64,000 bases of DNA from Octopus vulgaris (lineage: Eukaryota): contig OX597814.1 in NCBI GenBank assembly GCA_951406725.2, forward strand, positions 95,294,001 to 95,358,000. Reading direction: 5' to 3'. Below are positions 5,571 to 33,258 of this stretch, in pieces; within the stretch, counting starts at the first letter, position 1; every line of letters begins with the position of its first letter. Both the position numbers and the translations under genes were made by a program. Below the pieces are notes generated by a model. The model did no database searches. It worked only from the letters and a program-made list of their open reading frames with translations, and had not been told where the DNA came from.

Positions 5571-7343
5571 CATCATCATCATCATCATCATCATCATCGT
5601 CCAGCGTCCGCCTTCCATGCTAGCATGGGTTGGACGGTTCTACTGGGGTCTGTGAAGCCAGAAGGCTTCATCAGGCCCAGTCAAATCTGGCAGTGTTTCT
5701 ACGGCTGGATGCCCTTCCTAACGCCAACCACTCCGTGAGTGTAGTGGGTGCTTTTTACGTGCCACCCGCACTGGTGCCAGACAGAGCTGGCAAACGGCCA
5801 CGAACGGATGGTGCTTTTTATGTGCCACTGGCACGAGGGCCAGGCGTGGCTGGCAACAGACACGAAACGGGGCGGTGCTGGCAACGGTCGCGAAACGGAA
5901 AGTTCTCTTACATGCCACCGGCACTGGTAACACATCTGCAATTTCCATTGATCGATTTCCATTGATCGATTTCGATTCTGATCCTCACTTGCCTCAACGG
6001 GTCTTCACAAGCAGAGTTTTGACATGCCACCGGCACTGGTAGCACATCCGCAATTTCCATTGATCGATTTCGATTCTGATCCTCACTTGCCTCAACACGT
6101 CTTCACAAGTAGAGTTATGGACTCACTTGTCCTGCCGGGTCTTCTCGCGCACAGCACACTTCCAGAGGTCTCGGTCTCTAGTCATTTCCTCAGTGAGACC
6201 TAAAGTTCGAAGGTCGTGCTTCACCACCTCGTCCCAGGTTTTCCTGGGTCTGCCTCTTCCACAGGTTCCCTCAACCGCTAGGGTGTGGCACTTTTTCACA
6301 CAACTATCTTCATCCATTCTCGCCACATGACCATACCAGCGCAAACGTCTCTCTTGCACACCACAACTGATGCTTCTTAGGTCCAGCTTTTCTCTCAAGG
6401 TACTTACACTCTGCCGAGTGTGAGTACCGGCATTACACATCCATCGGAGCATACTGGCTTCATTTCTAGCGAGCTTACGCATATCCTCAGCAGTCACGGC
6501 CCATGTTTCACTGCCATGTAGCATGGCTGTTCGTACACACGCATCATACAGTCTGCCTTTCACTCTGTGCGAGAGGCCTTTTGTCACCAGCAGAGGTAAG
6601 AGCTCTCTGAACTTTGCCCAAGCTATTCTTACTCTAGCAGTTACACTTTCAGCACACCCGCCCCCGCTGCTGACTTGGTCACCTAGGTAACGGAAACTAT
6701 CAACTATTTCTAGTTTTTCTCCCTGGAAAGTGACGGAAGTTGGTCTCAGAGCATTTTCAGTGTTTATTGTTCCTGAGCATCTGCCACATACAAAAACCAT
6801 CTTCCTAGTTAGCCTTCCTTTGACATTGCTGCATCTCTTATGTGTCCATAGCTTACACTTAGTGCATCTTATAGAGTTTCTACCTACACCTTTTCTACAG
6901 ATCGAGCAGGGCCATCTACCTGAAGGTGTTTGTGATTTGTCTACCTTCCTACTGATTACGACTTTGGTTTTAGCTAGATTGACTCTGAGGCCCTTCGATT
7001 CTAATCCTTGTTTCCACACCTGAAACTTCTCCTCCAGTTCTGATAGCGACTCAGCAATTAGAGCAAGGTCATCAGCATAGAGGAGCTCCCAAGGGCATCC
7101 TGTCTTGAATTCCTCCGTTATTGCCTGGAGGACTATGATAAATAGGAGGGGGCTGAGTACTGAGCCTTGGTGGACTCCTACCTCTACCCGGAATTCTTCA
7201 CTGTACACATTTCCAACCCTCACCCTACTAGCGGCGTCCCTATACATGGCCCGCACAGCTCTCACTAACCATTCATCTATCCCTAGTTTCCTCATTGCCC
7301 ACCAGATAAGGGATCGGGGGACCCTGTCGAAGGCTTTCTCCAA
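5571..7343 (-). mobile_element. RTE-clade non-LTR retrotransposon, 5'-truncated, inserted in a (TA)n tract
   Basis: RT ORF plus about 550-bp 3'UTR ending in an (ATG)n tail (CAT repeat at 5571-5598); (TA)n on both sides; the 3' end is shared with many short copies (1440-1600, 10825-10948, 13480-13745, 32079-32380, 47138-47312, 48657-48915). Confidence 0.93.
6123..7343 (-). CDS. Partial RTE reverse transcriptase ORF (406 aa, uninterrupted, N-terminally truncated)
   Basis: Motifs (L)EKAFDRV, GVHQGSVLSPLLF, LLYADDL, GLRVNLAKTK, FRYLG, RRLRWYGHVARM, GRGRPRKTW are typical of RTE ORF2; starts at the truncation point, not a true start codon. Confidence 0.93.
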   Translation of the reverse strand: MEKAFDRVPRSLIWWAMRKLGIDEWLVRAVRAMYRDAASRVRVGNVYSEEFRVEVGVHQGSVLSPLLFIIVLQAITEEFKTGCPWELLYADDLALIAESLSELEEKFQVWKQGLESKGLRVNLAKTKVVISRKVDKSQTPSGRWPCSICRKGVGRNSIRCTKCKLWTHKRCSNVKGRLTRKMVFVCGRCSGTINTENALRPTSVTFQGEKLEIVDSFRYLGDQVSSGGGCAESVTARVRIAWAKFRELLPLLVTKGLSHRVKGRLYDACVRTAMLHGSETWAVTAEDMRKLARNEASMLRWMCNAGTHTRQSVSTLREKLDLRSISCGVQERRLRWYGHVARMDEDSCVKKCHTLAVEGTCGRGRPRKTWDEVVKHDLRTLGLTEEMTRDRDLWKCAVREKTRQDK

Positions 7344-7418
7344 GAAGGATATATATATATATTACGGAGATGTACTCGCATAGCAAGTAATTTGATCTAA
7401 GATCGTGTGCTGAAACGA

Positions 7419-7702
7419 AAACAATTGCAGCGTGGAAGGTGTTTATAAGCCATTTAAGAAACACACAAAAGCCGTTCGATTCACTCCAACATTTAAGTTT
7501 AATTTGTCAAAATATTTTCGTCGCTAAAATCCGCGACCTGTTCACTGACAAAGTCCGTGCTGCATCTCGGACTTTGTGAGTGAACAGGTCGCGGATTTTA
7601 GCGACGAAAATATTTTGACAAATTAAACTTAAATGTTGGAGTGAATCGAACGGCTTTTGTGTGTTTCTTAAATGGCTTATAAACACCTTCCACGCTGCAA
7701 TT

Positions 7703-7706
<4 letters not shown>
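7419..7706. repeat. Near-perfect fold-back (139-bp arms, 10-nt spacer) containing a hammerhead-like fold; PLE-type terminus
   Basis: Arms 7419-7557 and 7568-7706 are reverse complements with one mismatch seen; bounded by (TA)n at about 7348-7362 and 7706-7740. Confidence 0.9.
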
Positions 7707-7746
<40 letters not shown>

Positions 7747-7883: not shown

Positions 7884-7979
7884 ATTTAACAAGCTACTGC
7901 CTACCCCCAAAAAAGTCCCCCACCACCACTCCTTTAAACCTGCCTAAATGTATAAATGCTAATACAATTCTTGTTAAAT

Positions 7980-8030
7980 AGCTTCCTGAAGATTTCTCTT
8001 GAATGAAACAGTACTAGTCCTGTAGAAGCT
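7980..8030 (+). ncRNA. Type I hammerhead ribozyme
   Basis: AGCTTC-CTGAAGA-t TTC tctt GAA t-GAAA-CAG tactagtc CTG-TA-GAAGCT: 6-bp stem I, canonical core, GUA triplet (predicted cut after 8024), AATAAA at 8041-8046. Confidence 0.82.
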
Positions 8031-8052
8031 CCTTCTATATAATAAATTTAAA

Positions 8053-32080: not shown

Positions 32081-33258
32081 TCATCATCATCCTCATCCTT
32101 GTATAGCGTCCGCTTTCCATGCTAGCATGGGTTGGACGGTTCAACTGGGGTCTGGGAAGCCAGAAGGCTGCACCAGGCCCAGTCTGATCTGGCAATGTTT
32201 CTACGGCTGGATGCCCTTCCTAATGCCAACCACTCCGTGAGTGTAGTGGGTGCTTTTTACATGCCACTGGCACAGATGCCAGACAAGGCTGGCAAACGTC
32301 TACGATCGGATGGTGCTTTTTACGTGCCACCGGCACAGAGGCCAGGCCAGGCTGGCAATGGCCACGATCAGATGGTGCTTATATATATATGTATGTATAT
32401 ATATATATGTATGTATGCATGTATGTATGTATGTATATATGATGGGCTTCTTTTAGTTTATGCCTACCAAATCCACTCATGAGGCTTTAGTTGGCCTGAG
32501 TCTATAGTAGAAGACATTTGCCCAAGGTGCCAAGCAGCATGATTGAACCCAGAACCATGTGGTTGAGAAGCATGCTTTTCACCACACAGCCACACCTGTG
32601 CGTTCGCACATGTATGTGTGTATGTATATGTATGGTACAAAAATATAAAAAAAAACATGAAGGTGAATTAAAGAAAACAGTGTATTAGTTTGAAGACTAA
32701 CATTTCAGGCATATGCTCTTCTAGAGGAAGGATAGATGAGGAGAAAAAAAACCAAAGAGAAAAGAACATATGTGTCTCAGGTAGATGGTTATGGCATACT
32801 GAAATGATCAGAAGAGGAAGATGTTGGCTTAAGGTGTGGGTGGCAAGGAGGACAACAGTGACCTAATATATGTATACATATATAATGAGCTTCATTCAGT
32901 TTCTACCTACCAAATCCACTCACAAGGCTTTGGTCAGCTCGGGGCTAAAGTTGAAGACACTTGCTAAAGTAGATGACCATACAGCGTGACTGAACTTGAG
33001 ACCACATGTTTGAGAAGCAAGCTTCTTAGCCACAGCCCATGCTTGCACCCTTGTATCAATAGTAATAAACCACAATTCTCTCTGTCAGCACAGAAGATGA
33101 GTATTCTTGCTCTGATGAAGCCTGTAAAAAGACTAGAAGCTTCTCAGATCGATCCCACTTTTTCTGCTGCTTACATCATCATCATTTAACATTCGTCTTC
33201 CATGCTGGCATGGGTTGGACACACACACACACACATGTGATGTGTATGTGTGTGTGTG

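What the first reader, a model, noticed from the sequence alone, without database searches (positions are those of the whole stretch)
7419..7706. 139-bp fold-back holding a hammerhead scaffold with a non-canonical core (GUGAACAG)
Seen (minus strand 7503-7552; mirror 7573-7622): TTTGTCA-GTGAACAG-GTCGC ggatttta GCGAC-GAAA-ATAT-TT-TGACAAA. Stem I (7 bp) and stem II (5 bp) are perfect and CpG-rich, suggesting a young copy, yet the core reads GUGAACA instead of CUGANGA. Positions 3 and 8, normally a C-G pair, read G and C here, which looks like a compensatory swap. Inference: a natural C3G/G8C core-variant ribozyme rather than decay.
Basis: partly seen in the sequence, partly recalled or inferred. 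Interest (0 to 1): 0.8.

Follow-up and report, generated by a model that had tools for sequence, protein, structure and literature searches.

The report
Swapped-core hammerhead in Penelope retroelement ends
This fold-back is two head-to-head end-pieces of a very common octopus jumping gene, and each end-piece carries a hammerhead-shaped RNA whose two paired core letters are exchanged throughout the family, likely a natural form of a weakly active variant so far made in the lab, although self-cutting is untested.

Summary
Observation confirmed. Window 7362-7706 is one insertion in (TA)n: two head-to-head ends (pLTRs) of a Penelope-like retroelement whose full-length parent (RT plus C-terminal GIY-YIG nuclease) lies elsewhere in this genome. 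The GUGAACAG core is family-wide, not decay of one copy: 7,252 pattern hits, 94 of the first 100 G3/C8; runs under four species labels show the same core. Older sister elements read CUGAAGAG in the same register and differ only at positions 3 and 8 within a 17-base block, so the swap looks compensatory. I found no natural G3-C8 hammerhead in seven literature searches (a key survey, Lunse et al., was not held); engineered C3G/G8C is partly active. Activity is unshown. Against it: 232 mispaired G3-G8 copies, a sister family with another core change (A9C), a predicted G3-U17 wobble, and only a weak excess of copies starting at the cut site. In this fold-back copy both motifs would be buried in the hairpin. 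Side result: some head-to-head pairs join two different subfamilies, pointing to two RNA templates. The scan noted this same family twice before in this genome, and similar swaps in other genomes.

The parts
7362..7568 (-). Long arm: pLTR of the Penelope-like element from its 5' end (G-AGATGCAGC) through the tail
   Evidence: 98.5-99.5% identical over 197-201 nt to the complete pLTRs of full-length copies L081 and L082; 5' ends of copies cluster here
7568..7706 (+). Short inverted arm: second pLTR copy lacking the tail, ending at CAATTGTT; joined head-to-head with a 1-nt overlap
   Evidence: 135 of 171 sampled head-to-head pairs are one tailed arm plus one short arm
7503..7552 (-). Minimal type I hammerhead scaffold, intact: stem I 7 bp, core G3 (7545) U G A A C8 (7540) A plus one extra G, stem II 5 bp, GAAA, palindromic AAUAUU, U16.1, U17; predicted cut between 7510 and 7509
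7573..7622 (+). Mirror hammerhead scaffold (G3 = 7580, C8 = 7585) with a private C>G change at 7578 that breaks one stem I pair
7362..7453 (-). First 30 codons of the element's ORF (ATG at 7453), which in full-length copies continue into the RT-nuclease ORF; 7362-7418 is the 57-nt tail
   Evidence: same ATG opens the ORF MAYKHLPR... in L081 and L082
7349..7361 (.). Left (TA)n flank of the insertion
7706..7746 (.). Right (TA)n flank of the insertion

Best explanation
The fold-back is a head-to-head pair of end-pieces (pLTRs) of a high-copy Penelope-like retroelement inserted in (TA)n, and the hammerhead scaffold in each end-piece carries G3 and C8 throughout the family, which likely arose as a compensatory inversion of the C3-G8 pair and would give a slow ribozyme needing a dimer partner or the element's protein. 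Shown: family identity, parent ORF, family-wide G3/C8, canonical C3/G8 in sister elements in the same register. Inferred: transcripts start at AGAUGCAGC (an extra non-templated G at many 5' ends looks like a copied cap); reverse transcription starts at either of two sites 57 nt apart inside the ORF start, giving a tailed and a tailless cDNA that are joined head-to-head; in tandem transcripts two motifs would pair through AAUAUU to build helix III and cut after U17 at a low rate, so that most templates stay uncut. This particular copy is an inert by-product: read through, its arms would pair with each other and hide both motifs.
For: Parent: pLTR-ORF-pLTR in L081/L082 with RT motifs (DVVSLYP, YVDD), CX3CxxC linker and YIGETSR nuclease. 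Family-wide core: 7,252 hits, 94 of first 100 G3/C8; 36 of 37 core-covering arms from loci picked on the tail, not on the core; oldest subfamily 70 of first 100 G3/C8 and 0 of 100 C3/G8; no difference >= 3% at the core in runs of four species labels. Polarity: 10 old sister copies aligned read GTCA-CTGA(A/T)GAG-GTCGC against GTCA-GTGAACAG-GTCGC; in the nine with A7 only positions 3 and 8 differ in these 17 bases (that block was the search pattern, so only register and flank homology are new); the young sister family (54% aa identity) keeps C3-G8 and shows a G-C to A-U change in stem II; a metagenome relative reads CUGAUGAG (L220). All other catalytic positions (U4 G5 A6 A9 G12 A13 A14 A15.1 U16.1), the G10.1-C11.1 pair, the extra base after A9 and the palindrome match the min-HHR consensus of PMC4209133. 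Across subfamilies about 10% apart, loop II changes at 4 of 8 positions plus length and the 42 scaffold positions at 0; the one frequent stem I change keeps pairing as U-G. Engineered C3G/G8C partly restores cleavage in a PLE hammerhead (PMC11167929). Copies truncated at the predicted cut are about 1.8-fold commoner than at two control positions (about 44 vs 25 and 24).
Against: No cleavage assay. G3-G8 (unpaired) copies number 232 against 18 C3-C8, and in the youngest subfamily C8>G (30) outnumbers C8>T (18) and C8>A (7) while a control C gives 4, 12, 2: mispaired cores either spread or recur. The active sister family has A9 replaced by C in 53 of 53 motifs, which suggests relaxed catalytic constraint in this lineage. 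The lowest-energy fold pairs G3 with U17, and self-cofolding did not give the AAUAUU dimer helix. The scaffold-conservation test is weak (p = 0.04 against non-coding flanks, 0.07 against all other columns) and biased, because many loci were picked by patterns fixing about 18 of the 42 positions. Exact-site truncations, after removing ambiguous and double-counted loci by hand, are 11 loci against 3 and 7 at the controls: inconclusive. In PMC11167929 ribozyme-dead mutants inserted normally in vitro.
Confidence: 0.62

Rival explanations
1. Same element, but the scaffold no longer cuts: G3 and C8 were fixed one after the other in a founder element under relaxed selection, and the stems persist as a protein-binding or promoter structure or simply by descent.
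For: 232 G3-G8 copies on several subfamily backgrounds; A9C in the sister family; G3-U17 wobble; weak cut-site signal; hammerhead mutants do not block insertion in vitro (PMC11167929); Naiads thrive without canonical hammerheads (PMC8557442).
Against: The only two differences from sister elements in the 17-base block are exactly the two partners of the known tertiary pair and are complementary; other catalytic bases are unchanged in all subfamilies sampled while loop II drifts.
Confidence: 0.32
2. The fold-back itself is the functional unit (a MITE-like element or a hairpin RNA gene), and the hammerhead likeness is incidental.
For: Near-perfect 139-bp hairpin; sub-threshold Rfam matches to miRNA hairpin models.
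Against: Arms are pLTRs of a coding element; solo arms are common (89 of 292 arms); junctions vary between copies; the Rfam scores are far under their gathering thresholds and reflect pairing only; head-to-head pLTRs with a one-sided tail are standard for PLEs (PMC8557442, PMC3846280).
Confidence: 0.04
3. The G3/C8 core is mutational decay or a sequencing error in this one copy.
For: The short arm does carry one private change (7578).
Against: Both arms, thousands of copies and independent runs share the core.
Confidence: 0.01

Closest known systems
Minimal type I hammerheads (min-HHR) in pLTRs of metazoan Penelope-like elements (Cervera and de la Pena 2014, PMC4209133)
   Same: Location in the pLTR, extra base between 9 and 10.1, G10.1-C11.1, short palindrome in place of helix III, U-rich 5' flank, thousands of solo copies, opposite-strand pairs
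   Different: G3-C8 instead of C3-G8; none of the 56 representatives in their Fig. S3 has it (C3/G8 mostly, U3/A8 in two, U3/G8 in one); extra base is G where their consensus has H
Natural U3-A8 hammerhead variants (Perreault et al. 2011, PMC3088659; about 1,300 hits in Schistosoma mansoni, PMC4209133)
   Same: Natural covariation at the 3-8 tertiary pair
   Different: U3-A8 keeps pyrimidine at 3 and purine at 8 (two transitions); here the pair is inverted by two transversions
Engineered C3G/G8C double mutants (PMC11167929 for the anole PLE; reviewed in PMC8495972; G3-C8 variant mentioned in PMC3884650)
   Same: Identical core letters
   Different: Laboratory constructs with partial rescue; here the form is natural, family-wide and untested
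EN+ Penelope-like elements with a CX2-5CxxC linker (Neptune/Nematis type; PMC8557442) and their inverted pLTR insertions (PMC3846280)
   Same: C-terminal GIY-YIG nuclease, linker finger, pLTR overlapping the ORF start, one-sided tail, inverted pLTR, (TA)n targets
   Different: Tail is 57 nt rather than 30-40; some inverted pairs join two subfamilies, which the self-priming proposal in PMC3846280 does not predict

Membership tests
Hammerhead ribozyme (type I, minimal PLE form) | Core U4 G5 A6, A9, G12 A13 A14 A15.1, U16.1, H17 | tested here: met
   N17 = U
Hammerhead ribozyme (type I, minimal PLE form) | C3 and G8 as sequence (CUGANGA) | tested here: not met
   G3 and C8 in 94 of the first 100 of 7,252 hits; no Rfam hammerhead match
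Hammerhead ribozyme (type I, minimal PLE form) | Watson-Crick complementarity between positions 3 and 8 | tested here: met
   G3-C8 in sequence; in register with C3-G8 of sister elements; pairing itself is inferred
Hammerhead ribozyme (type I, minimal PLE form) | Stems I and II with G10.1-C11.1 | tested here: met
   7 bp and 5 bp in the long arm, z = -3.4; stem I broken once in the short arm
Hammerhead ribozyme (type I, minimal PLE form) | Palindrome able to form helix III in a dimer | tested here: inconclusive
   AAUAUU is a 6-nt palindrome, but the lowest-energy self-cofold did not use it
Hammerhead ribozyme (type I, minimal PLE form) | Site-specific self-cleavage 3' of N17 | not testable with these tools
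   Indirect genomic test inconclusive; only contig-level RNA data
EN+ Penelope-like element | Single ORF region with RT followed by C-terminal GIY-YIG nuclease, flanked by direct pLTRs | tested here: met
   L081, L082 (both have frame breaks); motifs read by eye; Pfam gave no hit on these ORFs and only sub-threshold RVT_1 / GIY-YIG hits on homologs
EN+ Penelope-like element | pLTR includes the ORF start, optional one-sided tail, inverted pLTR, AT-rich targets | tested here: met
Neptune or Nematis clade | CX2-5CxxC finger between RT and nuclease | tested here: met
   CQSNCAVC in L082; definition from PMC8557442
Neptune or Nematis clade | Placement in an RT tree with named clade members | not tested
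   no named reference proteins were at hand
Naiad | N-terminal nuclease | tested here: not met
   nuclease motifs follow the RT

The most novel reading that the evidence does not exclude
A natural hammerhead in which the C3-G8 tertiary pair has been inverted to G3-C8 is catalytically active and was kept through the whole expansion of an octopus Penelope-like family, passing through a mispaired state that such elements tolerate; and the head-to-head pLTR pairs are built from two separately primed cDNAs (one per RT start site, possibly one per protein monomer) rather than by self-priming.
Probability: 0.45. Interest if true: 0.6.

Novelty: new variant of a known kind. Interest (0 to 1): 0.45.

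Why it matters
Hammerhead searches fix CUGANGA or at most allow U3-A8, so G3-C8 families are invisible to them (Rfam missed all copies here). A natural inverted pair would be evolutionary confirmation of the 3-8 tertiary contact and would show how far the general-acid nucleotide can change. The family also offers a ready test of an open question, whether PLE hammerheads need to cut at all: paired (G3-C8), mispaired (G3-G8, C3-C8) and A9C versions all exist as natural sequences in one genome. The chimeric inverted pairs bear on how PLE inverted repeats form.

Tried and rejected
Rfam: nothing relevant. Idea that G3-G8 copies are the preserved evolutionary intermediate: not supported, because the oldest subfamily sampled is already 70 of 100 G3/C8 with 8 G3/G8 and G8 occurs on young backgrounds too. 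Idea that C8>G is just a general C>G hotspot: only partly, CpA sites show 0.57% C>G against 0.17% at other non-CpG C, below the 3.2% at position 8. Idea that copies start at a splice acceptor after splicing: no shared upstream exon among 97 5' contexts, most show an extra G or the unspliced upstream sequence; the acceptor-like sequence remains unexplained. Expression: no RNA holder listed; contigs of four runs guessed to be RNA cover the pLTR, show no pile-up of ends, and cannot show strand or cleavage. Cut-site truncation test: inconclusive. Metagenome relatives: of 16 top loci scanned only L220 gave a hammerhead; most contigs end before the pLTR. DNA around the ENA protein homologs could not be obtained. 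Pfam scans of the neighbouring LINE fragment did not run, so its label rests on motifs read by eye. Three papers were not held: Lunse et al. (PMC5785218), Przybilski and Hammann 2007 (PMC1986816), Scott et al. 2013 (PMC4008931).

Full report
Observation. Arms 7419-7562 and 7563-7706 are 98% complementary, with mismatches at 7547/7578, 7558/7567 and 7560/7565. The minus strand 7552->7503 holds stem I (7 bp), GUGAACAG, stem II (5 bp), GAAA, AUAU, U, U and the stem I partner. A strict descriptor finds it once in the window and never in 60 block-shuffled windows; it folds at z = -3.4. The mirror copy has a private change at 7578 that breaks one stem I pair. Rfam reports nothing at gathering score and only sub-threshold hairpin models at E <= 10.

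What the element is. The short arm matches 62 places among 40 scored of 814 candidates, the best at 98-100%. Copies end either at CAATTG(TT) or 57 nt further at CCGTAA, nearly always in AT-rich or (TA)n DNA, so the insertion here is 7362-7706. Of 119 copies whose tail is not followed by A, 3 of the 30 examined run on into a shared sequence. Two of these, fetched as L081 and L082, are pLTR-ORF-pLTR elements: the ORF starts at an ATG inside the pLTR (7453 on the minus strand here) and carries RT motifs, a CX3CxxC linker and a C-terminal YIGETSR nuclease motif, with frame breaks in both copies. Motif assignments are read by eye against PMC8557442 (passages); Pfam gave no hit. 162 homologs at E <= 1e-20 were found; the best (54% identity) is labelled Octopus vulgaris by its source and is encoded at 100% identity in this genome. 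This is an EN+ Penelope-like element of the Neptune/Nematis type; the clade was not placed on a tree. Inverted pLTRs with a one-sided tail are standard for such elements (PMC8557442; PMC3846280, passages).

The core is family-wide. A pattern leaving positions 3 and 8 free has 7,252 hits; the first 100 are 94 G3/C8, 2 T3/C8 and one each of G3/G8, A3/C8, G3/A8 and C3/C8. In loci picked on the tail rather than the core, 36 of 37 core-covering arms read GTGAACAG. The oldest loop variant sampled (307 hits) is already 70 of the first 100 G3/C8 and 0 C3/G8. Contigs from four runs under four species labels show no difference of 3% or more at the core. A canonical core in the same context has 27 hits; the 20 examined belong to older, diverged elements, and the 10 aligned are homologous through the ORF start at about 57% column identity. 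The young sister family keeps C3-G8 and has an A-U pair where this family has G-C in stem II, but reads C at position 9 in 53 of 53 motifs. A metagenome relative has a fully canonical core (L220, 1 of 16 loci scanned). So C3-G8 is the ancestral state and this lineage changed both partners.

Is it under selection? In 186 arms not picked on core variants, subfamily-level differences fall on 4 of 8 loop II positions, 6 of 62 non-coding flank positions and 0 of 42 scaffold positions (columns chosen by hand; one-sided p = 0.0003, 0.04, and 0.07 against all other columns). This is biased, since many loci were picked by patterns that fix about 18 scaffold positions. Against strict need for the pair: G3/G8 has 232 hits and C3/C8 18; in the youngest subfamily position 8 changes to G 30, T 18, A 7 times, whereas a control C in stem I changes to G 4, T 12, A 2 times. 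G8 occurs on several subfamily backgrounds and often in one arm of a pair only. It is neither the preserved intermediate nor fully a mutation hotspot; I leave it unexplained.

Does it cut? If it did, cDNAs from the 3' product would begin at TGACAAA. A pattern for such starts has 70 hits; 19 of 30 motifs examined are truncations, about 44 in all, against about 25 (14 of 28 of 51) and 24 (11 of 28 of 62) at two control positions. Counting only exact starts genome-wide gives 18, 8 and 4 hits; after removing by hand 3 stem I microhomologies, 1 internal deletion, 1 double mutant and 2 double counts at the site, and 1 non-truncation at each control, it is 11 loci against 7 and 3. That is a hint at most. 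The lowest-energy monomer extends stem I with a G3-U17 wobble, and self-cofolding did not form the AAUAUU helix. No run on record as RNA was listed, and the contigs laid cannot show ends. For this copy the point is moot: the whole insertion folds as one hairpin of -253 kcal/mol against -15 for the motif.

How the fold-back forms. Among 171 head-to-head pairs in the loci collected (not a random sample), 135 are one tailed plus one tailless arm, 3 tail-tail and 5 short-short. In vitro, the anole PLE protein starts reverse transcription at two sites bounding the tail and extends both target strands (PMC11167929, parts 1-2 of 4 read). Of 82 pairs with at least 6 diagnostic sites in both arms, 12 differ at 3 or more; 10 of these pair two recognisable subfamily patterns and 2 are alignment gaps. 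Copying one arm from the other cannot give that; two templates, or later gene conversion, can. Of 97 5' contexts, 34 have GAG before ATGCAGC where full-length copies usually have CAG or TAG (4 of the 34 continue into upstream element sequence), which fits a copied cap and a start at AGAUG. These steps are inferred.

Comparison with what is known. Apart from positions 3 and 8 the motif fits the min-HHR of PMC4209133 (parts 1-2 of 4 and supplement file 2 parts 1-2 of 3 read), whose tested dimers cut only slowly. Natural covariation on record there and in PMC3088659 (section 8) is U3-A8. C3G/G8C is described as an engineered partial rescue (PMC11167929; PMC8495972 one passage; PMC3884650 passages). 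Searches and passage look-ups in PMC6155905, PMC6765202, PMC10085705 and bioRxiv 10.64898/2026.07.22.740005 showed no natural G3-C8 hammerhead. The large survey by Lunse et al. and the 3-8 exchange study by Przybilski and Hammann could not be read, figures are not held, and supplement file 1 of PMC4209133 was not searchable, so absence from print is not established.

Earlier notes of this scan. Two notes describe the same swapped-core family in other pieces of this genome and three describe similar swaps in other genomes. They are not independent support; I reached the reading before seeing them and did not check the other genomes.

Verdict. A real, family-wide, probably compensatory inversion of the hammerhead 3-8 pair in an otherwise ordinary Penelope-like element end. 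New variant of a known kind; activity about 60% likely and probably low; interest 0.45.

Noticed in passing
window:7815-7893 and 7970-8048: A second, perfect 79-bp inverted repeat just downstream carries a canonical-core hammerhead-like motif (CUGAAGA, 6-bp stem I, 4-bp stem III, weak stem II opening with U-U) at 7986 (+) and 7877 (-); probably another PLE family in the same (TA)n; fold z only -0.5.
   Followed up: partly
window:38200 (minus strand): Canonical minimal hammerhead, CUGAUGAA with 5-bp stem I and 6-bp stem II.
   Followed up: no
window:6117-7349 (minus strand): Open frame of about 410 codons with LINE-type RT motifs (LEKAFDRV, LLYADD), RTE-like by recall, starting right at the (TA)n that holds the insertion.
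   Followed up: partly
L315 and L293-L322: Young sister PLE family (up to 99% identical copies, open frames up to about 1,310 codons) whose pLTR hammerhead reads CUGAUGCG: A9 replaced by C in 53 of 53 motifs.
   Followed up: partly
L121, L158, L167, L168, L073, L118, L348, L401, L077, L418: Head-to-head pLTR pairs whose two arms carry diagnostic sites of different subfamilies.
   Followed up: partly
L150-L179: G3-G8 copies of the youngest subfamily: 30 hits, none on contigs C1-C8, six on C29; four C29 loci share a further change and a CAG>GAG change upstream.
   Followed up: partly
L082:6955-6984: Sequence just upstream of the common 5' end looks like a branch point, pyrimidine tract and AG acceptor, but no spliced copy was seen.
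   Followed up: partly
window:3470-3806, 5747-5866, 32249-32380: 63-nt tandem units within a dispersed SINE-like repeat.
   Followed up: no
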